A DNA stretch of 64,000 bases from Bacillota bacterium (GCA_021820465.1 JAKADP010000003.1:2183-66182); one strand, 5' to 3'. Numbered from the stretch's first letter, positions 12,742 to 56,186 are shown. Notes: a model not told the origin generated them from the sequence alone. Translations and numbers: made by a program.

Positions 12742-12895
12742 CCGCTTCCTCCTCACCGGTACCAATCTCCCGCAGGCTGCGCCCGGTTAGTCGGGAAGTT
12801 CGCGCCGAGGAGCAAAACTCCTGCCCGGCCGGCCTTGACGTCCGCCCCGCGGGGCGCGATCGTGGACCGAGCGTCACGGGGCAGGAGGAATGACG

Positions 12896-13978
12896 ATGGC
12901 GGATGTGGTGGTCGTGGGAGCCGGGGTCATTGGCTTGGCCGCAGCGTGGCACCTCGCGGGCGACGGCATGGACGTGGCGGTCTTGGATGCGGGCCCTCTG
13001 GGGGGCCAGTCATCCCGGGCCGCCGCGGGCATCCTGGGGCCCCTCGTCGAGTCGCGCGACGACGGACCGCGGACGCGCTTGTTCTGGGACAGCTGGGTCG
13101 AGTTTCCCGCTTGGGTCGAGGCCCTGCGCGAAGACAGCGCCATTGACCCGGAATTTGAGCCCACCGGCATCCTGCGGCAGGTCGGCGCCGCGGAGCGCGA
13201 GGAGATGGAGGCCTCCCTTGCGTGGCGCCGCCAGTATTCACCCGAGTTGGAGTGGCTCGAGGACCAGGACCCCAATTGGCCCGCCGCCATCTGGTCCCCG
13301 CATGAGGGGCAAATCCGCGGCCCGGCCTATGTGGCGGCGCTGGCCCAGGCCGCGGCCGCGCGCGGCGTCGACATTCGACTGGGGGAGCCGGCGCGGCGCA
13401 TCGGCGTCCAGGCCGGCCAGGTGGTGGCCGTGGACACCCCGCGGCAGTCCCTGGCCACCAGCACCGTCGTACTGGCCGCCGGAGCCTGGGCCGGTGGACT
13501 GCTGCCGCACGCGGAGCCGCTGCCCGTGCTGCCCGTGCGCGGGCAGGCTTTGGCCCTGAAGGCTGCCCGGCCGCCGTTCCCGCATGTGGTGTTTGGCCCC
13601 ACCGGCTACCTGGCCCCCAAGCGAGACGGCCAGGTGGTGGTGGGGGCGACCGAAGACGCGGCGGCGGGGTTCGACGCGCGGGTGACGTTTGCCGGGATTG
13701 CGGCGCTGGCCGATGTCGTCCGATCCATGTCGCCCGAACTGCTGCCGCTGCCGTTTGACGGGGCGTGGGCCGGACTGCGGCCGGCCACCCCCGATGGCCG
13801 GCCGCTGCTGGGGCGGTGGCCCGGCATCGATGGCCTCATCATCGCCGCCGGGCACTACCGCAACGGACTCTTGCTCTCCCCCATCACGGCGCAGATCGTC
13901 CTGGCGCTGGTGCGGGGCCAGACGCCATCGGTGGATCTCACGCCGTTTCGCCCAGACCGGTTCCACCGCACGCGCTGA
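12896..13978 (+). CDS. thiO: glycine oxidase
   Basis: MADVVVVGAGVIGLAAAWHLA (FAD GxGxxG) and a DAO-family body. The thiamine gene context supports the call. Confidence 0.85.
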   Translation: MADVVVVGAGVIGLAAAWHLAGDGMDVAVLDAGPLGGQSSRAAAGILGPLVESRDDGPRTRLFWDSWVEFPAWVEALREDSAIDPEFEPTGILRQVGAAEREEMEASLAWRRQYSPELEWLEDQDPNWPAAIWSPHEGQIRGPAYVAALAQAAAARGVDIRLGEPARRIGVQAGQVVAVDTPRQSLATSTVVLAAGAWAGGLLPHAEPLPVLPVRGQALALKAARPPFPHVVFGPTGYLAPKRDGQVVVGATEDAAAGFDARVTFAGIAALADVVRSMSPELLPLPFDGAWAGLRPATPDGRPLLGRWPGIDGLIIAAGHYRNGLLLSPITAQIVLALVRGQTPSVDLTPFRPDRFHRTR

Positions 13979-15614: not shown

Positions 15615-16382
15615 TCATATCGCCTCGGCCCCGCCGCACACCGGGCACGTGGCGCGGACGGGCACCGGAACGACCCGCGCCGCCCCGGTAAACAGGTCCA
15701 CCAGCCACAGGCGGCCCGTGAGCGCCTGACCCACTCCCAGAATCCACTTCAGGGCCTCCCCCGCTTGTAGGGATCCTACCACCCCGACCAGCGGGCCCAG
15801 CACGCCGGCCACGCTGCACTCGGCGGGGGCGTCCGCCACCGAGCCAAACAGGCACGCCAGACAGGGCCGCCCGCCCGGAGGCACGACGGTCACCTGGCCC
15901 TCATATCCGAGCGCGCCGCCAAACACGACCGGTGCGCCCCCCCGGACGGCCCAGGCATTCAGCACATCGCGCATCCGCCCGTCGTCCAGCCCGTCCACCA
16001 CCACGGTCGCGCCGCCCAGCAGCGTGTCCGCGCTGTCCACCCCCAGTGCCACCGCGTGCCGCACGATGGACAGCCCTGGGCTCTGCGCGCGGAGGCGGGC
16101 GGCCGCCGCGTCCACCTTGAGCGCGCCCACGTCGGCCGCCCCATAGAGGATCTGGCGTCCCAAGTCCGTCGGCGCCACGCGGCCCGGGTCAATCAGGACG
16201 AGCCGCCCCACCCCCGCCGCCGCCAGATAGGGAGCGCTGGCACAGCCAAGTCCCCCCATCCCCACCATGGCCACGGTAGCGCCGGCCAGTTTGTCCAGCA
16301 TGGCGGGCCGCACGTCGGGCAGCGCCACGAGGCGCCGGACCCGGTCCACGTCGCGCACCACCGGGAAGCCCGAGTCGCTCAC
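15615..16382 (-). CDS. thiF: ThiF/MoeB-type sulfur-carrier adenylyltransferase
   Basis: VAMVGMGGLGCASAPYLAAAGVGRLVLID (E1-like Rossmann) and C-terminal CxxC pairs. The GTG start overlaps the thiG stop (GTGA). Confidence 0.8.
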   Translation of the reverse strand: MSDSGFPVVRDVDRVRRLVALPDVRPAMLDKLAGATVAMVGMGGLGCASAPYLAAAGVGRLVLIDPGRVAPTDLGRQILYGAADVGALKVDAAAARLRAQSPGLSIVRHAVALGVDSADTLLGGATVVVDGLDDGRMRDVLNAWAVRGGAPVVFGGALGYEGQVTVVPPGGRPCLACLFGSVADAPAECSVAGVLGPLVGVVGSLQAGEALKWILGVGQALTGRLWLVDLFTGAARVVPVPVRATCPVCGGAEAI

Positions 16383-17203
16383 GGCTTTGTGGCCGCCGAC
16401 ACGATGCCCGCCTCGGGCGAGGACGCTGCGGCACGGTCCCGGCGGGGCATGCGCCCGGCGGCGCGCCCCAAAAACGCCGCCTCCACGGCCAGACGCATGG
16501 CTTGGGCCATCTGCACCGGATGCCGGGCTTGGGCAATCGCGGTGTTGATGAGCACGGCGTCGGCGCCCGCCTCAATCGCCAGCGCGGCGTCGGCTGGACT
16601 GCCGATGCCCGCGTCCACCACGACGGGCACGCCGCCGACTCGCGCCTTGATGAGCGCCACCGCCGACACGTCCAGGACACCCTGCCCCGACCCGATGGGC
16701 GATCCCAGCGGCATCACGGCCGCGGCACCCGCCTCGGCGAGCCGGCGAGCCAGCACGGGGTCCGGCGTGGTGTACACCATGACCGTGAAGCCGTCGTCCA
16801 CCAGCAGGCGCGTGGCGTCATAGGTGGCCACCGGGTCAGGCCACAAAAGGTCCGCATCGCCAATCACCTCGAGCTTGACCAGGCTGCCAAGCCCGGCGGC
16901 CCGCGCCAGCCGCGCCGTCACAACCGCCTCCTCGGCCGTATGGGCCCCCGCGGTGTTGGGCAGCAGCGTCACCCCCTTCGGCACGTATTCCAAGAGCGAC
17001 GGCTCGTCCGGCTTGTCGATGTTGACCCGCCGGACGGCCACGGTCACCAACTCCGTCCCCGAGGCGTGAATGGCCTCCCGCATCTCCTCCCACGTGGCAT
17101 ATTTCCCTGTGCCCACAATGAGGCGCGAGCGGAACTGGTACTCCCCGACGCTCCACGACCCCAACTCCTTGGGCCGCATCCCGGCCGTCTCCTGCTCCGT
17201 CAT
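16379..17203 (-). CDS. thiG: thiazole synthase
   Basis: FRSRLIVGTGKY, LLPNTAG and MPLGSPIGSGQG are ThiG motifs. ATG 17203 is preceded by AAGGAGGAGG. Confidence 0.9.
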   Translation of the reverse strand: MTEQETAGMRPKELGSWSVGEYQFRSRLIVGTGKYATWEEMREAIHASGTELVTVAVRRVNIDKPDEPSLLEYVPKGVTLLPNTAGAHTAEEAVVTARLARAAGLGSLVKLEVIGDADLLWPDPVATYDATRLLVDDGFTVMVYTTPDPVLARRLAEAGAAAVMPLGSPIGSGQGVLDVSAVALIKARVGGVPVVVDAGIGSPADAALAIEAGADAVLINTAIAQARHPVQMAQAMRLAVEAAFLGRAAGRMPRRDRAAASSPEAGIVSAATKP

Positions 17204-17228
17204 GTCGTCCTCCTCCTTTCGCGGCGCG

Positions 17229-17429
17229 CTACCCACCACCAACAAACCGGACGATTTCCAACTCGTCGCGGTCGTGCAGCGGCTCGCGGTCAAACGCCTC
17301 GCGCGCCACCACCTGCCCGTTTTGCAGCACCCCCACCGCCTGATGCGTGACCCCCAGGTGGGTCAACAGTGCGCCCACCGTGGGCAACTCTGGGGTCTCG
17401 CGCCAGCTGCCGTTTACCTTTAACTCCAC
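17229..17429 (-). CDS. thiS: sulfur carrier protein ThiS
   Basis: 66 aa ending in VGGG. GTG 17429 is preceded by GGGAGG. Lies between thiE and thiG. Confidence 0.8.
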   Translation of the reverse strand: MELKVNGSWRETPELPTVGALLTHLGVTHQAVGVLQNGQVVAREAFDREPLHDRDELEIVRFVGGG

Positions 17430-18042: not shown

Positions 18043-19466
18043 TAGGTAGACTGCTCCGATGCCATGCTCATCTCCGGCTGCTGGCCCCGTGGCCAGCTGC
18101 TGTAAATCAGGACGCTGGCCGCGAACGCCACCAGAAAGCCAAGGTCCGATCCCTGAAACACTCCGGTGGCCAGCGGGCCCTGATACACGGTGGTGGAGCT
18201 GAAGAGCGCCGCCACAACCAAGCCCGCCCCCCAGGCCACCAGCGCGGGGATCCGATACGCGCCATAGAGAGAGTCCCGCCCGCGATAAAGTTCCGGGACA
18301 TTGACGCCGTGCTTGAGACGCGTCGCCAAGTCCACCAAAAACACACCGGCCCAAGGCGCCAGCACCCCGGCCAACAGGCTCAGGAACGCCTCGAAGGTGC
18401 CCATGAACGACTGGGAGGCCGCCAAGAGGACGTACAGGCTGCCGGCCACCGAAAGCACCGCGTCGACAAACACGGTCCGGTATCGGGGTATGCGAACCTC
18501 CGCGGCCAGCAAGCTCAATCCCGAGGAATAGATGTCCAGAATGTCTCCGGTCACCATGCTGGCGACGGCCGTCAGGAGGTAGGGCACGGCCAGCCCACTG
18601 GGCAGCATCGCCTGCAGATAGCCGATCGGATTGGCCGTGGTGGCCAGGCCCGCGTGGCCGCCGTACAGCAGCAGGCCGAGCAGCATGAGCGCCGCGGCCG
18701 GGATGACCGACCCCCAGGTGGTGGCGCCCCAAATGCGGCGGCTCGAGGTGGTGCGGGGCAGGTAGCGCGTGTAGTCGCTCGCCGTGTTGACCCACGAAAG
18801 CCCCGTTGCCGCCACCACGACGGAGAAAGCCGGCAGCACCCCTGTAAGCCACGGGCCGTTGGGAATCCGCCCCAGAGCGCTCCAGTTGACATGCGGCAGC
18901 AGCAGCGCGGCCACAACCACGGTCATGGCACCAAACACATAGCTAAAGGCCGTCTGCACGCGCACCAGCGTCGCATGGCCCAACAGCGCCACGGAAAAGG
19001 CCACACCCATCACCAGCGCCAGCGAGCCAACGGCCACCGGCCACGTCGGCGCCCACCCGAACGCCGCATGACCCGCCGCCTCCAGCGCCAGCGTGGCCAC
19101 CACCAGCACAACCGTCTCCCAGCCCACCAGGTTCACCCACGACACCAGGCTGGGAAGCACGTTGCCGCGGGTCCCGAACGACGCGCGGCTCAAGACCATG
19201 GTGGGCACTCCCGTCCGCGTCCCCGGAATGGCGAAGTATCCAATCAGCGCAAACGATCCCACGCCGGTCAGCACCAGGAGCCCCTGCGCCAGCGATAGGC
19301 CGTAGGACATGGCCACGGCCCCCAGCACCAAGCCTACAATCGCCAGATTGGCCGCAAACCACACCCAAAACAAGTTGCCGGGACGCGCGTGCCGCTCTTC
19401 GTCCGGAACGGGATTGGCCCCGTTCTGTTCGATGCGCCACGCTTGATCTCCCGATGCTGCTGCCAC
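18042..19466 (-). CDS. cytX: purine-cytosine permease family transporter, putative hydroxymethylpyrimidine transporter
   Basis: 474-aa polytopic NCS1-like protein. It is the first gene after a TPP riboswitch. The GTG start is preceded by AAGGAGG. Confidence 0.75.
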   Translation of the reverse strand: MAAASGDQAWRIEQNGANPVPDEERHARPGNLFWVWFAANLAIVGLVLGAVAMSYGLSLAQGLLVLTGVGSFALIGYFAIPGTRTGVPTMVLSRASFGTRGNVLPSLVSWVNLVGWETVVLVVATLALEAAGHAAFGWAPTWPVAVGSLALVMGVAFSVALLGHATLVRVQTAFSYVFGAMTVVVAALLLPHVNWSALGRIPNGPWLTGVLPAFSVVVAATGLSWVNTASDYTRYLPRTTSSRRIWGATTWGSVIPAAALMLLGLLLYGGHAGLATTANPIGYLQAMLPSGLAVPYLLTAVASMVTGDILDIYSSGLSLLAAEVRIPRYRTVFVDAVLSVAGSLYVLLAASQSFMGTFEAFLSLLAGVLAPWAGVFLVDLATRLKHGVNVPELYRGRDSLYGAYRIPALVAWGAGLVVAALFSSTTVYQGPLATGVFQGSDLGFLVAFAASVLIYSSWPRGQQPEMSMASEQST

Positions 19467-19504
19467 GAAACCGCCTCCTTACGCGGTGTGGCCAGGTAAG
19501 TCGC

Positions 19505-29803: not shown

Positions 29804-29878
29804 TGGCTGGGGAGGCAGGGTTCGAACCTGCGAATGCCGGCTTCAAAGGCCGGTGCCTTACCACTTGGCGACTCCCCA
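29804..29878 (-). tRNA. tRNA-Gln (anticodon UUG)
   Basis: The minus strand gives UGGGGAGUCGCCAAGUGGUAAGGCA...CCGGC-CUUUGAA-GCCGG...GGUUCGAACC...CCA. It has U1-A72 and an encoded CCA. Confidence 0.9.
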
Positions 29879-29886
29879 ACACAATT

Positions 29887-29962
29887 TGGTGGAGCGGAGG
29901 GGATTCGAACCCCTGACCCCCAACGTGCAAAGCTGGTGCTCTACCAACTGAGCTACCGCCCC
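29887..29962 (-). tRNA. tRNA-Ala (anticodon UGC)
   Basis: GGGGCGGUAGCUCAGUUGGUAGAGCA with anticodon loop UUUGCAC, a G3:U70 pair, a GGUUCGAAUCC T-loop and CCA. Confidence 0.9.
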
Positions 29963-29981
29963 GCTCCCTGGCTCAAGATAA

Positions 29982-30056
<75 letters not shown>

Positions 30057-30105
30057 CACAAAAACTGCCCCATCAGGACGCGGTGCCCGGGGCGCTGAAG
30101 CAAAT

Positions 30106-30181
30106 TGGCAGGCCAGGAGGGACTCGAACCCCCAACCCGCGGTTTTGGAGACCGCTGCTCTACCATTGGAGCTACTGGCCT
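30106..30181 (-). tRNA. tRNA-Trp (anticodon CCA)
   Basis: AGGCCAGUAGCUCCAAUGGUAGAGC with anticodon arm GCGGU-CUCCAAA-ACCGC, a GGUUCGAGUCC T-loop and CCA. Confidence 0.9.
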
Positions 30182-30217
30182 GCGACGCTTCTGCCTGGAT
30201 TCTACCACAAACGAGAC

Positions 30218-30294
30218 TGGTGGGCCATGAAGGATTCGAACCTTCGACACTCCGCTTAAAAGGCGGATGCTCTAACCAGCTGAGCTAATGGCCC
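30218..30294 (-). tRNA. tRNA-Lys (anticodon UUU)
   Basis: GGGCCAUUAGCUCAGCUGGUUAGAGC with anticodon arm CCGC-CUUUUAA-GCGG, a GGUUCGAAUCC T-loop and CCA. Confidence 0.9.
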
Positions 30295-30303
30295 CCCACA
30301 AAT

Positions 30304-30379
30304 TGGTGGCCCCACCGGGATTCGAACCCGGGTTACCACCTTGAAAGAGTGGTGTCCTAGGCCTCTAGACCATGGGGCC
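30304..30379 (-). tRNA. tRNA-Glu (anticodon UUC)
   Basis: GGCCCCAUGGUCUAGAGGCCUAGGAC with anticodon loop CUUUCAA, a GGUUCGAAUCC T-loop and CCA. Confidence 0.9.
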
Positions 30380-30384
30380 AAGTT

Positions 30385-30460
30385 TGGTGGAGATGAGGGG
30401 GGTCGAACCCCTGACCTCGTGAATGCCATTCACGCGCTCTACCAACTGAGCTACATCCCC
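30385..30460 (-). tRNA. tRNA-Ala (anticodon GGC)
   Basis: GGGGAUGUAGCUCAGUUGGUAGAGC with anticodon arm CGUGA-AUGGCAU-UCACG, a G3:U70 pair and CCA. Confidence 0.9.
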
Positions 30461-42673: not shown

Positions 42674-43459
42674 CTAGGGCTTCTTGCCGTCGGCCTGCTG
42701 CCGCTGGGCCCAAAAAGCCGCCAGCCCTGCGCGCGAGTCGTCTGAGAGGGCCACCAAGCCCACCATCTCCCGCAGATAGCGCATCTGCTCCCCCGCCGGC
42801 AGGCTGGGAAACACCCCCGCCGCCTCCTTGCCCATGCGCAAGATAAAGGCGCTGTGCTGAGCCAGCTGCTGGCAGTACGCCAAGCTTCCGGCGTCCAACT
42901 CTTCGGCGGGCACCACGCGGTTGACAAACCCCCACCGCTCCGCGGTGGCCACATCCATTCGGTCTCCCGTCCATGCCAGTTCCAACGTGCGCCGGCGCCC
43001 CAGGTGCCGGGAGATCGGGGCCATCACCACCATGGGAAAGAGGCCGACCTGAATCTCTGGCAGTCCAAACACCGTATTGTCCGCGGCCACCACCAAGTCC
43101 GCGCCGGCCGCCAGCCCCATCCCCCCCGCCAGCGTGTAGCCAAACACCGCGGCCACCAGTGGCTTGGGGCAGCGCTCCATGGCCTCGATGAGCCGCGCCA
43201 TCCCACCGAAGTACCGGCGGACGGCATCCACGCCATCCAAGGCGCCGACTTCTTTTAAGTCGGCGCCTGCACAAAAGGCTCGGCTCCCCGCGGCCGTGAG
43301 GCGCACCACCGACGTCCCGTCCTCCGCCCCCACGTCGGCCAGCCGGTCGATGAGCTCGTCGATCACGGCACTGTTCAGCGCATTGGCCGCCGCCGGGCGG
43401 TTCAGGCGCAGTGTGGCGACCCGCCCCTCGTGCTCCACCAGAACACCGGGCTCAGTCAT
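42674..43459 (-). CDS. enoyl-CoA hydratase/isomerase (methylglutaconyl-CoA hydratase-like)
   Basis: Track ORF trimmed to ATG 43459. ATLRLNRPAAANAL, AFCAGADLKE and GYTLAGGMGLAAGADL are crotonase motifs. Confidence 0.85.
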   Translation of the reverse strand: MTEPGVLVEHEGRVATLRLNRPAAANALNSAVIDELIDRLADVGAEDGTSVVRLTAAGSRAFCAGADLKEVGALDGVDAVRRYFGGMARLIEAMERCPKPLVAAVFGYTLAGGMGLAAGADLVVAADNTVFGLPEIQVGLFPMVVMAPISRHLGRRRTLELAWTGDRMDVATAERWGFVNRVVPAEELDAGSLAYCQQLAQHSAFILRMGKEAAGVFPSLPAGEQMRYLREMVGLVALSDDSRAGLAAFWAQRQQADGKKP

Positions 43460-44384
43460 GCACATACCCCTGGGGTCCGACGGGCACCATGCGGCCCCGG
43501 GCGCGGCGCACCCGCGACGGCAGCGGGTGTCCCACCCACTCTTCCAGCCGATCGCCCAACGCCAGCAGGGCATCCAGGTTGATGCCCGTGGCCACCCCCG
43601 ACTCCTCCAGCATGTACACGGCATCTTCGGTCGCGAGGTTCCCACCCGCCCCCGGGGAGAACGGGGACCCTCCGATGCCCCCCAGCGCTGTATCAAACAG
43701 GGTGATGCCCACATCGATGGCCGCCAGCATGTTGGCGAGGGCGGTGCCGCGATTGTCATGAAAGTGGCCGCCCAGATTCAGGCCCGGAATGTCCTGGCGC
43801 AGCTGGCTGAACATAGCCTGCACCTTCTTGGGATTGGCCACCCCCACGGTGTCCCCCAGCGTGATCTCGCGGACCCCCATGCCAAACAGCCGATACGCGA
43901 GGTCCACTACCACCGACGTGGGCACCTCGCCCTCGTAGGGGCAGCCGAAGGACGCCACAATGACGGCACTGGGCGGGACGTGATGGGCACGGGACATGTC
44001 GCACACGGTCTGAAGCTCCTGAAGCGAGTCGGTGATGCTCCGGTGGACGTTTTTCCAGTTGTGCGTCTCGCTAGCCGACAGAAAGACGGTAATCTCATCG
44101 GGGTTCATGGTCACCGCCCGCTGAGCCCCCTTAATGTTGGGCACCAGCACCGCATAGCGGCAGTAGGCGCGCCGGGTCAAGTTGGCCATCACCGCCTCGG
44201 CATCGGCCAACTGGGGCAGCAACTTCGGATGCACCACCGACACCGCCTCGATGCGCGACACCCCAGCCTGCGCCAATCCGTCAATCAGCTCCAGCTTGTG
44301 TTCCGTGGACACAATCACCGGCTCCGATTGCAGTCCATCCCGTGGTGATACATCGCGCAGCACCACCCGATCCGGCAGCCGCAT
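43452..44384 (-). CDS. hydroxymethylglutaryl-CoA lyase
   Basis: Track ORF trimmed to ATG 44384. LRDVSPRDGLQSEP, LGDTVGVANP and GGHFHDNRGTALAN are HMGL motifs. Confidence 0.9.
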   Translation of the reverse strand: MRLPDRVVLRDVSPRDGLQSEPVIVSTEHKLELIDGLAQAGVSRIEAVSVVHPKLLPQLADAEAVMANLTRRAYCRYAVLVPNIKGAQRAVTMNPDEITVFLSASETHNWKNVHRSITDSLQELQTVCDMSRAHHVPPSAVIVASFGCPYEGEVPTSVVVDLAYRLFGMGVREITLGDTVGVANPKKVQAMFSQLRQDIPGLNLGGHFHDNRGTALANMLAAIDVGITLFDTALGGIGGSPFSPGAGGNLATEDAVYMLEESGVATGINLDALLALGDRLEEWVGHPLPSRVRRARGRMVPVGPQGYVHD

Positions 44385-44427
44385 CTTGCCACCCCTTCCT
44401 CTTCGCGGTTCGCCTGACCTCGGGCCG

Positions 44428-45945
44428 TCACACCGGGGTGACGGGGTGGCGCCGCCGGCTGAAGTGCCGATCCTTCCCACGGTACCGCGCAAACCGGCTC
44501 ACAAGTTCCCCGCGCAGGCTGGCGGGCTCCACGATGTCGTCCACCACCAGCTCCGCCCCCAGCCGCAGGATATCAATGTCCTCCCGATACTCGGCCTGCT
44601 TCTCCGCCACAAACCGGGTGCGCGCCTCGCCCTCCAACTCCTGAATGCGATTGAAGTACACGGCGTTGACCGCCGCCTCCGGCCCCATCACCGCAATTTG
44701 CGCGCTGGGCAGCGCCAGCACCGCGTCCGACCCGAAGGCAGGGCCCGCCATCGCGTACAGCCCGGCGCCGTAGGCCTTGCGCAGCACCACACAAATTTTC
44801 GGCACCGTGGCCTCTGACACCGCCGCCACGAGCTTCGCACCATGGCGAATGATCCCGGCCCGCTCCACCTTCGTTCCAATCATAAACCCGGGCACGTCTG
44901 CTAAAAACAGCAGCGGCACATTAAACGCATCGCACAGGGTGATAAACCGGCTGGCCTTGTCGGACGAGTCCACAAACAAGACGCCGCCCTTGACCTTGGA
45001 CTGATTCGCCACGATGCCGACCGGCGAGCCGTCCAGGCGGGCGAAGCCAATCACCAACTCGGGCGCCCAGAGAGGCTTCAGCTCAAAGAAGGATCCCGCA
45101 TCCACCAACCCCTCGATCACTTGCTTTACATCGAAGGGCACATTCTGATTGCCGGGAATGATCCGCGACCAGTCCACCGCCGCCGCGGGCTGCGCCATGG
45201 TGGACGGTGGCTCCTGTTCGAAGTTGTCCGGCAGATACTGGAGGTACTGCCGCCCCCAGCGAATGGCGGTCGGTTCGTCGGGGGCCAGCAAATCCCCGGT
45301 GCCACTCACCGTGCAGTGCATGCGGGCCCCGCCCATCTCCTCCAGAGTCACTTTTTCGCCAATCACCATCTCGGCCATGCGCGGGGATCCCAGATACATG
45401 GAGGCGTTGTGGTCCACCATCACGACGACGTCGCAAAAGGCGGGAATGTAGGCCCCACCAGCCGCCGACGGGCCAAACAGCAGGCAGATTTGCGGCACCC
45501 GCCCCGACAGCTTCACCTCGTTGTAGAAGATGCGGCCGGCTCCCCGCCGGCCGGGAAACATCTCCACCTGGTCCGTGATGCGCGCTCCCGCCGAATCGAC
45601 CAGGTAAAAAATCGGACATTGATAGCGCTCGGCCTGCTCCTGGACCCGCAGGATTTTTTCAACCGTGCGGGCCCCCCACGATCCGGCTTTGACCGTGGGG
45701 TCGTTGGCCATCACCACCACCCGCCGCCCCTCGATCGTGCCCGTCACGGTGATCACGCCGTCCGCCGCCAGCTCGTCGTCCAAGGCGTTGGCAAACACGC
45801 CGTCCTCCACGTAGCCGGGGTCCAACAGCAGCGCCAGCCGCTCGCGGACCGGGAGCTTGTGCGCGGCCGCCAAGCGCTCGTGATAGCGCGGCGGACCGCC
45901 CGCCAAAGCTTTGCGGCGCCGCTCTCTCAGCTCATTGGTGTCCAT
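44428..45945 (-). CDS. acyl-CoA carboxylase carboxyltransferase (beta) subunit
   Basis: 505 aa of the Carboxyl_trans family: VTGTIEGRRVVVMANDPTVKAGSWG, GPSAAGGAYIPA, AYGAGLYAM. Confidence 0.9.
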   Translation of the reverse strand: MDTNELRERRRKALAGGPPRYHERLAAAHKLPVRERLALLLDPGYVEDGVFANALDDELAADGVITVTGTIEGRRVVVMANDPTVKAGSWGARTVEKILRVQEQAERYQCPIFYLVDSAGARITDQVEMFPGRRGAGRIFYNEVKLSGRVPQICLLFGPSAAGGAYIPAFCDVVVMVDHNASMYLGSPRMAEMVIGEKVTLEEMGGARMHCTVSGTGDLLAPDEPTAIRWGRQYLQYLPDNFEQEPPSTMAQPAAAVDWSRIIPGNQNVPFDVKQVIEGLVDAGSFFELKPLWAPELVIGFARLDGSPVGIVANQSKVKGGVLFVDSSDKASRFITLCDAFNVPLLFLADVPGFMIGTKVERAGIIRHGAKLVAAVSEATVPKICVVLRKAYGAGLYAMAGPAFGSDAVLALPSAQIAVMGPEAAVNAVYFNRIQELEGEARTRFVAEKQAEYREDIDILRLGAELVVDDIVEPASLRGELVSRFARYRGKDRHFSRRRHPVTPV

Positions 45946-45988
45946 GTGATCGCTCCCATCATGTATGTGGCGTGGCCCGGACCCGGCG

Positions 45989-46201
45989 TCAGTCCAAAAT
46001 CACTAGGGGATCTCCCTCGTTGACAAACGTGCCCTCCACCGCCAGCACCTCGCGCACCGTGCCCGCCACCTCTGACTCGACCGGAATCTCCATCTTCATC
46101 GATTCGAGCCGCGCCACTTCCTGACCCACCTCGACCCGATCGCCCACCGCCACCAGCATCTTGAAAACCGTCCCCGCCAAGCTTGCCTGAACCGCCGTCA
46201 T
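45989..46201 (-). CDS. biotin carboxyl carrier protein (stand-alone biotinyl domain)
   Basis: 70 aa with the LESMKME biotinylation motif. ATG 46201 is preceded by GAGGAGGAGAAGG and overlaps the upstream stop (ATGA). Confidence 0.8.
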   Translation of the reverse strand: MTAVQASLAGTVFKMLVAVGDRVEVGQEVARLESMKMEIPVESEVAGTVREVLAVEGTFVNEGDPLVILD

Positions 46202-46887
46202 GCCTTCTCCTCCTCGCACTCCCACTTCGCTCCGCCGGCCAGGGGCCACGAGCCGCCTGGGAACCGAGCCGGCACCAGGCCGCCGTCGCGCCACCAGCCA
46301 TCAAACAGCCGGGCACTCTTGACGCGTGCCCCGCCCTCCACCGCCCGAGTCCCCGGATCCCAGGCGTCATCCGGCGCCACGCGGCGATACGCGCCCAACA
46401 GCTCATCCGCCCACGCCCATCGCCGCGTGCCGTCCGTCACAGCGCCCGCCACAGCCGGATCCGCGTACAGCAGCGGACCCGCGCCAAACGCCTGGCCCTC
46501 GAGCCAGGCGGCGGCGCCATGCACAAACCCGACAGGGCCGCCCACCCGCCCGACCGCGCCCAGCGCGGCCGCTCCGCAAATCGCGGCCCACAGCGCTCGG
46601 TGCGAAAACACCAGCACACCCGTGGGGCGCGGCCACAGCAGTGCGGCGTCCGCGGGCCCGAGGGGGCGCGGAGCCGGCCGGCCCGCGCCGGGCGAGAGCC
46701 AGCCCCGGCTGCCCGCCGTCCGCCACCATACCGGCGCCCCCGCTCGCCAGGCCCCCAGCCAGAGCCCCGGGTCCATGCGCGCCACCCCAAACGGGCCCGA
46801 GCCCAGCGGCAGCGGACCGCCACGGTCTGCGCAGCGGGCGGGGTGGTCCGCCGGCAGCGCGTCGATCCACGCCAAGAGCGTGTTCAC
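46198..46887 (-). CDS. hypothetical Trp/Gly/Ala-rich protein embedded in the carboxylase operon
   Basis: This is the last 229 codons of track ORF 46198..47736. GTG 46887 overlaps the ACAD stop (GTGA) and its own stop overlaps the BCCP ATG. Third codon positions are almost all G/C in this frame. No family recognised. Confidence 0.55.
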
Positions 46888-48017
46888 CGGGGCAGCAGCT
46901 GCCGCGCGATGACCAGCCGCTGAATCTCGGACGTTCCCTCCCCAATCACCAGCAGCTTGGCGTCGCGCATGTAGCGCTCTACGGGGTAGTCGCGCATGTA
47001 GCCGTAACCACCGTGAATCTGCACCGCCTCCAGCGACGCCCGCATGGCGGCCTCCGACGCGAACAGTTTGGCCATCGCGGCCTCCTTGGCGTACTCGCGG
47101 TGCTGATCCTTGAGCCACGCCGCCTTCAACACCATGGTCCGCGCCAGCTCCACCTCCATGGCCATATCGGCGAGCTTGAACTGAATGGCCTGAAAGTGCG
47201 CCAGCTCGTGCCCAAACTGCCGCCGAGTCTGGCTGTACGCCAGCGCCGCGTCCAGCGCGGCTTGGGCCACTCCGACCGACAGCGCGCCGATGCTGATGCG
47301 GCCCCCGTCCAAAATCTCCAGGAACTGGCGAAATCCGCGGCCGGGTTCCCCCAGTCGCAGATCGCGCGGCACCTCGACGCCATCCAGATGAATTTCGCAG
47401 GTTTCGGATGACCGCATGCCCAGCTTGCGGTAGTCGGCACGGACGGTCAGCCCGGGCGTGCCGGCGGGAACAATGTAGGAGGAAATGCGCTGGTCTTCTG
47501 GCTGGCGCGCGGTGGCCACGATGTACCCCGCGTGCAGGGCGTTGGTGATGAAAATTTTCGTGCCGGTAATGCGATAGCCCTCGGAGGTCTCTTCGACGCG
47601 AGTGGCCGTGCCGCCGGCATCCGAGCCGGCCCCAGGCTCGGTGAGCCCAAACGCCGCCAAGTACTGGCCCGTCGCCGCCGGGATGAGAAACCGCTCCCGC
47701 TGGGCATCTGACCCGTACAGATAGAGCGGCGAGCACCCCAGCGACACGTGAGCCGCAAATCCCAGGCCCAGCGAGGCATCGACGCGGCCAATCTCCTCCA
47801 CGGCCAAGGCATAGCTCACCGTGTCCCCATCCGACCCACCCCAGCGCTCGGGAAACGGGATGCCAAAAAAGCCGAGCTCGCCCATCTGGCGCATGATGTC
47901 TAAGGGCACCTCGCCGGTCTCGTCACGCTCGGCGGCGCCCGGCGCCACCACCTGGTCGGCAAAGTCTCTTACGGTGGCGCGAATCAGCGTCTGATCCGGC
48001 GTCAAGTCAAAATCCAC
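46884..48017 (-). CDS. acyl-CoA dehydrogenase (isovaleryl-CoA dehydrogenase-like)
   Basis: Track ORF trimmed to GTG 48017 (GGAGGGAGG upstream). [21 protein letters not shown] and [10 protein letters not shown] are ACAD motifs. Confidence 0.9.
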
Positions 48018-48237
48018 GGCTCTCGCCTCCCTCCTACGTATAACACCCGGGAACCGGTTTGAACATGTGGAACACGCCGCCCCCCCTGTACGGGAGGCCA
48101 ATGTTCGGCTCTTCGCATTGACGGCCAACAGCCGCCATGGTCCGCTGTGGCTGTGGCGCCGGCCATAAGGGCAGACCGCAGGGGCGGCCGGAGGGCCCCG
48201 GCGACACGACACCCCACACGACGACAGGAGGTTCGCG

Positions 48238-48687
48238 ATGACGAGTGAACAGCAGCAGGTGCTCACGATGCTGGCGCAGGGGCGGGTCACGGAGGACGAG
48301 GCGTTCCGCCTGTACGCGGCGCTGGATGCTCACCCCGCGGCGCTGGAAGAAGGGGATCGCGCCGAGCACCTGCGCCGCATGCTGCATCAGGTGGCCGAGG
48401 GCTTGCTGGCGCCCGACCAGGCGATGGACGACGCCGCGGCCACCGCTGCCCGCCCGCGGCATCTGCGCATCCGGGCGCAGTCGCACACCGGCGAACAGGT
48501 CAATGTGCGCCTGCCGCTGGGCTTGGTGAGCCAAGTGGGCCGGTGGCTGCCAGGCGGTCACGTCACGGTCAACCACACCGTCATCCGCATCGACGAGCTG
48601 GTGGACCTGATCCGCCACGCCGGGATCGGCCAGATCCTGGAGGTGGACAGCGACCGCGGAGACCGCGTCACTATCGTCCTGGAGTAG
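48238..48687 (+). CDS. hypothetical protein with SHOCT/LiaX-YvlB-N-terminal-like helix
   Basis: GGAGG upstream. The N-terminal [24 protein letters not shown] matches the pattern. The rest is unassigned. Confidence 0.5.
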
Positions 48688-48718: not shown

Positions 48719-48985
48719 TTAATGGTCCGCCGGCTCTCGACGGTTCCCCAGCGACAGCACACCATCAAAGATGGCGGGCGTGAACACGCCCCCCGCCATC
48801 ACGATGCGGCCGTCCACCACAATCGTCGGGTTGCCCCCGTCCGACAGCTCGAGCCACCGGTCGCGGGCTTCGGCATCCACCGTCACGTCATGATAGGCAA
48901 ACGGGAGGCCTGCTTGCGAAAGCCACGCCTTCGCTCCGATGCAATCGCCTCAGGTGGGAGTTCCATAAATCACGATGCTTGGCAT
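48719..48985 (-). CDS. glutaredoxin/NrdH/mycoredoxin-like protein with in-frame TGA at the first redox Cys position (candidate selenoprotein, or nonsense pseudogene)
   Basis: Absent from the ORF track. GGAGG (48993-48997 complement) lies 7 nt before ATG 48985. My translation is MPSIVIYGTPT-TGA-GDCIGAKAWLSQAGLPFAYHDVTVDAEARDRWLELSDGGNPTIVVDGRIVMAGGVFTPAIFDGVLSLGNRREPADH, ending at TAA 48719-48721. The TGA is at 48950-48952. Confidence 0.6.
48916..48934 (-). promoter_or_regulatory. candidate bacterial SECIS-like hairpin
   Basis: The mRNA reads GCGAAGG-CGUGG-CUUUCGC (7-bp stem including one G-U, pentaloop containing GU). It starts 15 nt after the UGA. Confidence 0.35.
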
Positions 48986-49250
48986 AGCTTGGCCTCCGTT
49001 CGTCTGGTCGCCTGATCCTTAAATCGGCAAGTCGCACGCGCAGCGCCTATTTATTATGGCTGGACCCCGCCCGCGGTCAAGTGCGCCGGCCGACCCCCGT
49101 GGGATGCGAAGCTCGCGCTCCGGTGCCCCCCATACAACCCTTACACAGTGCCTCGCGCGATAACATGATTCAGGACAGTAGGATTTCCGACGCTACCCTC
49201 TATGCCAGAGTGGTTGTATTCAGTGGTTTTAGTCATATACCTCTGCTAAA

Positions 49251-56092: not shown

Positions 56093-56186
56093 TGGCGGGA
56101 GTATGTGGGAATCGAACCCACCGCCGACCGCCGGCCGGCCATCGGATTTGAAGTCCGTGGAAGGCACCAGTCCTCCATCTACCCCC
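56093..56186 (-). tRNA. selC: tRNA-Sec (anticodon UCA)
   Basis: 94 nt on the minus strand: GGGGGUAG-AU-GGAGGACUGGUGCCUUCC-A-CGGA-CUUCAAA-UCCG-...long variable arm (GGCCGGC/GCGGUCGGC)...-GUGGG-UUCGAUU-CCCAC-AUACUCCC-G-CCA. The acceptor strand is 8 nt and the T stem is 5 bp. The anticodon stem is only 4 clean bp. Confidence 0.75.

What the first reader, a model, noticed from the sequence alone, without database searches (positions are those of the whole stretch)
48719..48985. Unlisted glutaredoxin/NrdH-like gene whose CxxC reads U(TGA)-G-D-C: candidate selenoprotein
Seen in sequence: a minus-strand frame starts at ATG 48985, with GGAGG 7 nt upstream. It encodes MPSIVIYGTPT, then TGA at 48950-48952, then GDCIGAKAWLSQAGLPFAYHDVTVD...GGNPTIVVDGRIVMAGG, running 76 more codons to TAA. 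The TGA sits exactly where Grx/NrdH/mycoredoxin proteins have the first Cys of YxTxWCxxC. The downstream frame stays GC3-rich and fold-like. A 7-bp hairpin with a GU-containing pentaloop starts 15 nt after the TGA, which puts the loop about 22 nt downstream. That is within the range I recall for bacterial SECIS elements. A UCA-anticodon tRNA lies 7.1 kb away at 56093-56186. Inference: UGA is decoded as selenocysteine, giving a UxxC redox motif. The alternative is a TGC-to-TGA nonsense pseudogene.
Basis: partly seen in the sequence, partly recalled or inferred. Interest (0 to 1): 0.85.

Follow-up and report, generated by a model that had tools for sequence, protein, structure and literature searches.

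The report
Unannotated selenocysteine glutaredoxin-like gene
This is a real but unannotated small redox-protein gene whose in-frame TGA almost certainly encodes selenocysteine; it adds a new bacterial lineage to an already known class of selenoproteins (selenocysteine glutaredoxins) that automatic gene callers truncate.

Summary
Window 48985..48719 (-) is an 88-codon glutaredoxin-fold ORF. With Sec replaced by Cys it scores 48.2 bits on Pfam PF00462 (cut-off 22.9). Codon 12 is TGA and falls on the first Cys of the CxxC motif, giving U-G-D-C. All 27 related copies retrieved (16 distinct genes, four subclades, down to about 61% identity) keep TGA at this codon. dN/dS is 0.17 upstream of it and 0.25 downstream, which excludes a pseudogene. 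Cys-form homologues carry Cys at the same position (YGTPT-C-GDC at 33-38% identity; YGTPT-C-PDG at 63%). An 8-bp hairpin with a GUG loop, 23 nt after the UGA, meets all four published bacterial SECIS criteria. It is 96% paired across orthologues and two pairs change on both sides. A full-length tRNA-Sec (Rfam 67.8 bits) lies 7.1 kb away. TGA is otherwise the commonest ordinary stop codon here. selA, selB and selD are not in the window and could not be tested. Sec-glutaredoxins (PF00462, UxxC) are an established family, so this is a new member of a known kind, from Thermaerobacter-like Bacillota. All databases hold it only as 48-73 aa fragments. In a sister clade the gene sits next to a selenocysteine CoA-disulfide-reductase-like gene.

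The parts
48719..48985 (-). Coding sequence of the selenocysteine glutaredoxin-like protein: 88 sense codons including Sec12, then stop TAA at 48721-48719.
   Evidence: Translation. Pfam PF00462 scores 48.2 bits against a 22.9 cut-off with U replaced by C. Orthologues are full length in the same frame in 27 copies. dN/dS is 0.17-0.30 along the gene.
48950..48952 (-). In-frame UGA at codon 12, the predicted selenocysteine codon. It is the first residue of the U-G-D-C redox motif.
   Evidence: TGA is present in 27 of 27 copies and 16 distinct genes. It aligns to the first Cys of CPPC in PDB 3ZIT and of CVQC in NrdH 1R7H. It also aligns to Cys in the Cys-form homologues.
48916..48934 (-). Predicted bacterial SECIS hairpin. 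The 5' arm is 48934-48927, the loop GUG is 48926-48924, and the 3' arm is 48923-48916. The loop starts 23 nt after the UGA.
   Evidence: Hairpin energy is -11.3 kcal/mol. RNAalifold recovers the same helix independently. Across orthologues 96.2% of cells are paired, against 25-55% in slid registers, and two pairs have double-sided changes. All four bSECIS model criteria from PMC13188914 Fig. 2 are met. Synonymous divergence is lower across these codons, pS 0.33 against 0.51-0.53.
48993..48997 (-). Shine-Dalgarno sequence GGAGG, 7 nt upstream of the ATG.
   Evidence: Read directly from the sequence. GGAGG is kept in L001-L003.
49053..49080 (-). Sigma-70-like promoter candidate TTGACC-16-CATAAT upstream of the gene.
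   Evidence: Consensus scan: 10 of 12 matches, with 1 site found against 0.3 expected. This is a pattern match only and has not been shown to function.
56093..56186 (-). tRNA-Sec gene (selC), anticodon UCA. It would be the decoder of the UGA.
   Evidence: ARAGORN calls it tRNA-Sec. Rfam RF01852 scores 67.8 bits against a gathering score of 47, matching the full model 1-91 with anticodon loop CUUCAAA and a long variable arm.

Best explanation
The region is a functional, monocistronic gene for an 88-residue glutaredoxin-fold selenoprotein. Translation starts at ATG 48985. At codon 12 the UGA is recoded as selenocysteine: SelB-GTP carrying Sec-tRNA(Sec) (the tRNA gene is 7.1 kb away) binds the small in-frame hairpin whose GU-containing loop lies 22-23 nt downstream, and delivers Sec to the ribosome. 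Translation then continues for 76 codons to TAA. The product has a U-G-D-C motif at the start of helix 1 of a thioredoxin/glutaredoxin fold. Sec12 would be the attacking nucleophile and Cys15 the resolving residue, cycling through a selenenylsulfide as a thiol-disulfide oxidoreductase. Shown by computation here: the gene, its frame, the conserved TGA, purifying selection on both sides, the Sec/Cys pairing, the conserved hairpin, and the tRNA-Sec. Inferred: actual Sec insertion, SelB binding, the redox chemistry, and the reductant. The reductant is probably a thioredoxin-reductase-type or CoADR-type flavoprotein rather than glutathione, judging from the closest solved relatives and the sister-clade neighbour.
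For: (1) TGA is at the same codon in 27 of 27 copies (16 distinct genes, four subclades, about 61-95% amino-acid identity). (2) Both flanks are under purifying selection in one frame. dN/dS is 0.17 for codons 2-11 (pS 0.51) and 0.25 for codons 26-49. Variable sites by codon position upstream of the TGA are 4/1/9. (3) With U replaced by C the protein passes Pfam Glutaredoxin (48.2 bits against 22.9), and the TGA aligns with the nucleophilic Cys of solved Grx-like thioredoxin and NrdH structures. (4) Cys-form homologues carry Cys at this position: YGTPT-C-GDC in 26 distinct sequences and YGTPT-C-PDG in P0010/L056 at 63% identity. (5) The hairpin meets the published bSECIS model (loop 3-9 nt, stem 4-16 bp, G in the first two loop positions, spacing 16-37 nt, MFE at most -7.5) in every orthologue: loop 3-5 nt, stem 7-8 bp, spacing 21-23 nt, -7.9 to -11.6 kcal/mol. 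It is 96.2% paired against 25-55% in slid registers. A-U changes to G-C at one pair and C-G to A-U at another, through amino-acid-changing substitutions. RNAalifold finds the same helix. (6) The GC-matched Cys-form L056 lacks the in-register helix. (7) tRNA-Sec is in the window. (8) TGA is the commonest ordinary stop here, used by 15 of 34 Pfam-supported ORFs, so the code is not reassigned (together). (9) In the sister clade a second gene, CoADR/NADH-oxidase-like, has TGA at its active-site Cys followed by a hairpin of the same geometry (15-nt spacer, 7-bp stem, AGUU loop). This shows Sec decoding with this SECIS type in close relatives. (10) Every database protein for this gene is a 48-73 aa C-terminal fragment, which is the usual annotation artefact for selenoproteins.
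Against: selA, selB and selD were not found in the 64-kb window or in about 5 kb beyond its left edge, so their presence in the genome is untested. A compliant hairpin follows 9% of random TGAs in this GC-rich window. The covariation rests on only two pairs and five cells, from three divergent subclades, and most sequences share an identical hairpin. One metagenomic variant (L006) breaks a stem pair, and two sequences have a C-C mismatch that can be accommodated as a bulge. A subset of low-GC marine Cys-forms also has an A/U-rich hairpin at the same place, so hairpin presence is not perfectly Sec-specific. No tRNA-Sec was seen in the fetched parts of related contigs. There is no proteomic or 75Se evidence.
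Confidence: 0.92

Rival explanations
1. It is a pseudogene: a TGC/TGT-to-TGA nonsense mutation inactivated an ordinary glutaredoxin-like gene.
For: A single C/T-to-A change at the third position would produce it. Gene callers do not call the full ORF.
Against: TGA is fixed in 27 of 27 copies across four subclades down to about 61% identity. There are no frameshifts or further stops. dN/dS is 0.17-0.30 on both sides of the TGA. A dead gene would not keep frame, motif and hairpin over that divergence.
Confidence: 0.01
2. The UGA is passed without selenocysteine, by programmed stop-codon read-through or near-cognate decoding (Trp, Cys or Arg). The hairpin merely stimulates read-through, and the tRNA-Sec serves other genes.
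For: selA/selB/selD are unverified. Downstream hairpins can stimulate read-through in some systems (general knowledge).
Against: The codon sits exactly on the catalytic Cys of CxxC and pairs with Cys in homologues, which is the signature of Sec rather than Trp or Arg insertion. The hairpin matches the bSECIS model, including the G-U loop signature. tRNA-Sec is present. Relatives carry a second TGA-at-active-Cys gene with the same hairpin geometry.
Confidence: 0.04
3. There are two separate products: an 11-residue leader peptide ending at TGA, and an independently initiated C-terminal protein of 55-73 aa, as annotated in the databases.
For: This is what Prodigal and PGAP call.
Against: A 55-aa fragment lacks strand 1, the redox motif and helix 1 of the Grx fold. 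The stretch between the TGA and the called internal starts (codons 13-33) is under purifying selection in the same frame, as are codons 2-11. The called internal starts differ between callers: residue 16 in P0001 and residue 34 in the others.
Confidence: 0.03

Closest known systems
Selenocysteine-containing glutaredoxin (Grx selenoprotein family, PF00462, UxxC). It is listed as experimentally verified in PMC13188914 Table 1 (representative WP_010943784.1, Geobacter sulfurreducens) and is reported in Alkaliphilus and Moorella thermoacetica in PMC1794560. Biochemistry is in Kim et al. 2011, Mol Microbiol 79:1194.
   Same: Same Pfam domain above threshold. Same UxxC motif at the N-terminal redox site. 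Same bacterial in-ORF SECIS logic. Also found in Bacillota.
   Different: The new clade is sequence-isolated. No known or annotated Sec-Grx was retrieved by the word-based search, and there were only 22 hits among 1.84 billion representatives. The motif is U-G-D-C and the C-terminal signature is VMAGGVF(T/H)P. It comes from a high-GC Thermaerobacter-like lineage. Direct sequence comparison with the Geobacter, Alkaliphilus and Moorella proteins could not be made because those sequences were not obtainable here.
NrdH-redoxins and short Grx-like thioredoxins (PDB 1R7H, 4FIW, 3ZIT/3ZIJ).
   Same: They are the best solved-structure matches (E 3.5e-7 to 7e-6). They have the same length of about 75-88 aa and the same fold, with the redox motif at the same place. 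These proteins are reduced by thioredoxin reductase rather than glutathione (from my own knowledge).
   Different: They have CVQC or CPPC rather than UGDC. The NCBIfam NrdH score is 24.5 against a cut-off of 85.75. No WSGFRP-type motif was seen on reading the sequence. No nrdE/F/I genes are nearby.
UXX-star glutaredoxin-like selenoproteins (NCBIfam NF041212, NF041114, NF041211).
   Same: They are small Grx-fold selenoproteins, and they give the second-best NCBIfam hit (40.9 bits).
   Different: The hit is below the cut-off of 66. As I read the family name, UXX-star proteins carry Sec in a C-terminal U-x-x-stop motif. This protein ends ...REPADH-TAA and has no C-terminal Sec.
Selenocysteine thioredoxin (PF00085, UxxC; for example Treponema denticola, cited in PMC13188914).
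   Same: The redox logic is the same: Sec replaces the attacking Cys of CxxC in a thioredoxin-fold protein.
   Different: It is a different Pfam family. The protein here matches the Glutaredoxin model, not the Thioredoxin model.

Membership tests
Bacterial selenoprotein gene (UGA recoded as Sec) | The in-frame UGA is conserved among orthologues and the reading frame is kept on both sides. | tested here: met
   27 of 27 copies and 16 distinct genes carry it. dN/dS is 0.17 upstream and 0.25 downstream.
Bacterial selenoprotein gene (UGA recoded as Sec) | Cys-containing homologues have Cys aligned to the UGA (a Sec/Cys pair). | tested here: met
   YGTPT-C-GDC in L018-L046. YGTPT-C-PDG in P0010/L056 at 63% identity.
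Bacterial selenoprotein gene (UGA recoded as Sec) | A bSECIS hairpin lies immediately downstream: loop 3-9 nt, stem 4-16 bp, G in the first two loop positions, 16-37 nt from the UGA, MFE at most -7.5 kcal/mol (PMC13188914 Fig. 2). | tested here: met
   All four criteria are met in every orthologue. The hairpin is conserved with compensatory changes. The chance rate for a single sequence is 9%.
Bacterial selenoprotein gene (UGA recoded as Sec) | A tRNA-Sec gene (selC) is present in the genome. | tested here: met
   Window 56093-56186 (-), called by ARAGORN and by Rfam at 67.8 bits.
Bacterial selenoprotein gene (UGA recoded as Sec) | selA, selB and selD are present in the genome. | not testable with these tools
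   They are not among the ORFs of the window or in the 5 kb beyond the left edge.
Bacterial selenoprotein gene (UGA recoded as Sec) | Selenium incorporation is demonstrated by 75Se labelling or mass spectrometry. | not testable with these tools
   This requires an experiment.
Sec-containing glutaredoxin (Grx, PF00462, UxxC) | The Glutaredoxin domain scores above Pfam's gathering threshold. | tested here: met
   48.2 bits against 22.9, residues 4-62, with U replaced by C.
Sec-containing glutaredoxin (Grx, PF00462, UxxC) | [quoted passage not shown] | tested here: met
   U12-G-D-C15 aligns to CPPC and CVQC of solved relatives.
Sec-containing glutaredoxin (Grx, PF00462, UxxC) | The protein shows glutathione-dependent disulfide reductase activity. 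| not testable with these tools
   This is a biochemical property. The nearest solved relatives are thioredoxin-reductase-dependent types, so the feature may not hold.
NrdH-redoxin (TIGR02194) | The score reaches the NCBIfam cut-off. | tested here: not met
   24.5 bits against 85.75.
NrdH-redoxin (TIGR02194) | The gene is associated with class Ib ribonucleotide reductase genes (nrdI/E/F). | tested here: not met
   The neighbours are a hypothetical 149-aa protein, an acyl-CoA dehydrogenase and transporters. The same is true in the orthologous loci.
Mycoredoxin (TIGR02200) | The score reaches the NCBIfam cut-off. | tested here: not met
   31.0 bits against 89.5.
YruB-family glutaredoxin-like protein (TIGR02196) | The score reaches the NCBIfam cut-off. 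| tested here: not met
   This is the best NCBIfam hit, but it scores 44.5 bits against 88.55.
UXX-star glutaredoxin-like selenoprotein (NF041212) | The score reaches the NCBIfam cut-off and the protein has a C-terminal U-x-x-stop. | tested here: not met
   40.9 bits against 66. The C-terminus is ...REPADH followed by TAA.

The most novel reading that the evidence does not exclude
The Sec-glutaredoxin is one half of a dedicated two-selenoprotein redox relay. In the sister clade (L004, L012, L017) it lies immediately upstream of a CoA-disulfide-reductase/NADH-oxidase-like flavoprotein whose active-site Cys is also Sec. NAD(P)H would reduce the Sec-flavoprotein, which would reduce the Sec-Grx, which would reduce targets. 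That would be a selenol-to-selenol electron chain replacing the thioredoxin-reductase/thioredoxin pair in these thermophilic Bacillota. In the window's clade the partner would be encoded elsewhere.
Probability: 0.15. Interest if true: 0.55.

Novelty: new member of a known kind. Interest (0 to 1): 0.32.

Why it matters
The finding corrects a systematic annotation error. In every public source this gene exists only as a 48-73 aa fragment lacking its active site. [quoted passage not shown] It gives a compact, well-conserved SECIS (15-nt spacer, 8-bp stem, GU loop) that is shared with a second selenoprotein gene in relatives, which is useful for training SECIS and selenoprotein predictors on GC-rich genomes. 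The adjacency of Sec-Grx and Sec-CoADR in the sister clade suggests a testable redox partnership. It does not change any concept of how Sec decoding works.

Tried and rejected
(1) selA/selB/selD. Pfam scans of about 55 ORFs covering nearly all coding space of the window found none. Extending about 5 kb past the left edge through an exact-protein look-up found none. The right-edge look-up failed because the protein was not on record. (2) The ThiF ORF ends in TGA (15615-15617) and runs in frame into the next ORF. I considered it as a second selenoprotein because MoeB/ThiF selenoproteins exist, and rejected it. The Pfam ThiF domain ends at residue 310 of 318, the downstream ORF is an unrelated PMT_2-like membrane protein, and gene callers start it 13 codons later. 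(3) A GC3/GC2-plus-hairpin screen for other Sec-TGAs in the window gave 7 candidates. Only one had a hairpin, and it is antisense to dnaE. The screen's thresholds also missed the grx gene itself, so this is only a weak negative. (4) The hairpin-absence control in Cys-forms was clear for the GC-matched L056 but ambiguous for low-GC marine forms, a subset of which has an A/U-rich hairpin at the same site. (5) The exhaustive profile search and structure prediction refuse a U-to-C edited sequence. The 76-aa part downstream of the TGA was searched instead, and no structure was predicted. (6) Literature searches for Thermaerobacter together with selenocysteine, selenoprotein or SelD found nothing. 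Kim et al. 2011 (PMC3062254) is not held. BSepDB's paper does not mention Grx. (7) tRNA-Sec was sought in all fetched loci by ARAGORN and blastn and not found. The selC position next to MarR is therefore not conserved in L005 and L013.

Full report
OBSERVATION. On the minus strand, GGAGG (48997-48993) lies 7 nt before ATG 48985. The frame reads MPSIVIYGTPT, then TGA (48952-48950), then 76 codons, then TAA at 48721-48719. Fifteen nucleotides after the TGA lies GCGAAGGC-GUG-GCUUUCGC (48934-48916), at -11.3 kcal/mol. ARAGORN and Rfam both call a tRNA-Sec at 56093-56186 (-). The Rfam hit is RF01852 at 67.8 bits against a gathering score of 47, matching the full model with anticodon loop CUUCAAA. 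The window is about 70% GC.

IS IT MORE THAN CHANCE? Taken alone, the hairpin is weak evidence. Of the 1199 TGA trinucleotides in the window, 9.2% are followed by a perfect stem of at least 7 bp that satisfies the published SECIS constraints. The 48-nt fold has z = -1.8. The decisive evidence is comparative.

COMPARATIVE EVIDENCE. With Sec written as Cys, the protein passes Pfam Glutaredoxin at 48.2 bits against a 22.9 cut-off. A search of 5.8 billion proteins returned only eight hits, all 48-73 aa C-terminal fragments. That is the pattern expected when gene callers restart after an in-frame TGA. Fetching the DNA behind these fragments and behind tblastn hits gave 27 copies and 16 distinct gene sequences. 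They came from genomes, ENA, JGI and Logan assemblies. They fall into four subclades: the window's clade; L003/L008; L004/L012/L017; and L057-L059, which has a different genomic GC of 63%. Every copy has TGA at codon 12 in an otherwise open, alignable frame.

Nei-Gojobori estimates over 14 distinct genes give dN/dS of 0.17 for codons 2-11 upstream of the TGA (pS 0.51), 0.30 for codons 13-25 and 0.25 for codons 26-49. Variable sites upstream of the TGA fall 4/1/9 on codon positions 1/2/3. Both sides are therefore translated in one frame and kept by selection. This excludes a pseudogene, and it also excludes the annotated model of a leader peptide plus a short ORF.

TGA is not reassigned in this genome. 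It terminates 15 of 34 Pfam-supported ORFs in the window (together).

SEC/CYS PAIR. Twenty-six distinct homologues at 33-38% identity, mostly from low-GC marine metagenomes, read YGTPT-C-(G/S)DC. The exhaustive search of 1.84 billion representatives found only 22 hits. One of them, P0010, is a full-length Cys-form at 63% identity reading YGTPT-C-PDG; its DNA (L056) has TGT at this codon. In solved structures the codon aligns with the first, nucleophilic Cys of CPPC in the Grx-like thioredoxin 3ZIT/3ZIJ and of CVQC in NrdH 1R7H.

SECIS. The review PMC13188914 gives the consensus bacterial SECIS model: loop 3-9 nt, upper stem 4-16 bp, a G in the first two loop positions (commonly N1-G-[G/U]-N-N2), 16-37 nt between UGA and loop, and MFE at most -7.5 kcal/mol. 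Every orthologue complies, with loop 3-5 nt, stem 7-8 bp, spacing 21-23 nt and -7.9 to -11.6 kcal/mol. The window's CGUGG fits the N1-G-U-N-N2 pattern exactly.

On 13 distinct sequences the helix is 96.2% paired, against 25-55% in slid registers. Two pairs change on both sides: A-U to G-C (Lys AAA to Arg AGA together with Leu CTT to CTC), and C-G to A-U (Ala GCG to Glu GAG together with Trp TGG to Phe TTT). RNAalifold finds the same helix without guidance.

Synonymous divergence is lower across the hairpin codons (pS 0.33 against 0.51-0.53). A/T-ending codons (AAA, CTT, CAA) are retained there. GC3 is 0.62 in this stretch and 0.76 in the rest of the gene.

The GC-matched Cys-form L056 has no in-register helix. 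There are caveats. The covariation comes from few lineages. L006 breaks one pair. Some low-GC Cys-forms have an A/U-rich hairpin at the same place.

MACHINERY. tRNA-Sec is present in the window, but selA, selB and selD are not. They are also absent from the roughly 5 kb I could add on the left, and the rest of the genome was out of reach.

There is indirect support from the sister clade. In L004, L012 and L017 the next gene is a 450-aa CoA-disulfide-reductase/NADH-oxidase homologue (E 1e-93 to PDB 6RUZ). It has TGA at the active-site Cys (SYSS-U-GIPY), and gene callers split it into 50 + 397 aa. After its UGA there is a 15-nt spacer, a 7-bp stem and an AGUU loop, which is the same geometry as in the grx gene. 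[quoted passage not shown]

WHAT IT IS. It is a monocistronic gene with a Shine-Dalgarno sequence and a promoter-like TTGACC-16-CATAAT at 49080-49053. It encodes an 88-residue Grx-fold selenoprotein with a U-G-D-C motif. No NCBIfam subfamily cut-off is reached: YruB 44.5 against 88.55, Uxx-star 40.9 against 66, mycoredoxin 31 against 89.5, NrdH 24.5 against 85.75. There is no nrd gene context and no C-terminal U-x-x-stop. It should therefore be called a glutaredoxin-fold or Grx-like selenoprotein, not NrdH, mycoredoxin or UXX-star. The organisms are Thermaerobacter-like Bacillota MAGs.

COMPARISON WITH WHAT IS KNOWN. Sec-glutaredoxin (PF00462, UxxC) is listed among the experimentally verified prokaryotic selenoproteins. 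It was reported in Geobacter sulfurreducens, Alkaliphilus and Moorella in 2006. By domain and motif this gene belongs to that kind. By sequence it is an isolated clade in which Sec is fixed, and it is unannotated everywhere. I found no literature linking Thermaerobacter to selenocysteine.

VERDICT. The finding is a new member of a known kind. It is a solid annotation correction of modest conceptual interest. The Sec-Grx/Sec-CoADR adjacency in the sister clade is the most interesting lead.

Noticed in passing
L012:6643-7995, L004:5276-6628, L017:826-1011 (sister-clade loci, immediately downstream of the Sec-grx orthologue): This is a CoA-disulfide-reductase/NADH-oxidase-like flavoprotein gene with TGA at the active-site Cys (YSS-U-GIPY, or YSS-U-GSRY in L017). 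Gene callers split it into 50 + 397 aa. After the UGA there is a 15-nt spacer, a 7-bp stem and an AGUU loop, the same geometry as the grx hairpin. It belongs to a known selenoprotein family (UGxP), but the adjacency to a Sec-Grx suggests a redox pair. The window itself has no such gene.
   Followed up: yes
L019, L022, L023, L025, L028, L046 (marine Cys-form homologues), 20 nt after the Cys codon: In these low-GC Cys-forms an A/U-rich perfect stem of 8-10 bp with loop GCAAGUU (or GCAAGUG/GCAAGUA) sits where the Sec-forms have their SECIS. It could be chance (the Ala-Lys and Phe-Ala codons are reverse complements), a relic, or a sign that TGA-forms exist in that lineage. The metagenome scan used Cys codons only, so TGA-forms could not have been seen.
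   Followed up: partly
L056:128-382 (protein P0010): The closest Cys-form relative (63% identity, 71% GC, from the same sample as L016) has a monothiol-type motif C-P-D-G. It lacks the resolving Cys and has no SECIS-like helix in register.
   Followed up: partly
window 48238-48687 (+): A 149-aa hypothetical protein lies convergent with the grx gene, 31 nt from it, and is conserved in that position throughout the main clade (149 or 146 aa in L006, L008, L010, L011, L013, L016, L047-L052). It has no Pfam or NCBIfam family, only a weak SHOCT-like N-terminal match (E 0.003). The sister clades have CoADR or an MFS gene there instead.
   Followed up: partly
window 56093-56186 compared with L005 and L013: In the window, tRNA-Sec sits between a MarR gene and an MFS gene. 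The orthologous MarR-ABC-permease cluster in L005 and L013 has no tRNA-Sec upstream of MarR, so the selC position is not conserved among close relatives.
   Followed up: partly
window 15615-15617 (-): The ThiF gene ends in TGA and the frame stays open into the next gene, a PMT_2-like membrane protein, with high GC3 on both sides. I judged these to be two adjacent genes that happen to be in frame, not a selenoprotein.
   Followed up: yes
window 19534-19633 (-): A TPP riboswitch (Rfam 68.7 bits) lies upstream of a cytosine/purine/thiamine-type permease (18045-19478). Further along the same strand are thiG (16382-17362) and thiF (15618-16571), and on the opposite strand a DAO-family (ThiO-like) oxidase (12839-13975).
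   Followed up: no
window 29804-30460 (-): A tight cluster of seven tRNA genes: Ala-GGC, Glu, Lys, Trp, Gly, Ala-UGC and Gln.
   Followed up: no
window 20029-21279 (+): An IS110-family transposase (DEDD_Tnp_IS110 plus Transposase_20) lies between the thiamine region and a sortase gene.
   Followed up: no
window 42674-48329 (-): Downstream of the grx locus lies a gene cluster that looks like leucine or branched-chain acyl-CoA catabolism: acyl-CoA dehydrogenase, carboxyltransferase, HMG-CoA-lyase-like and enoyl-CoA hydratase. In L013 a biotin-lipoyl protein is also called between the acyl-CoA dehydrogenase and the carboxyltransferase.
   Followed up: no
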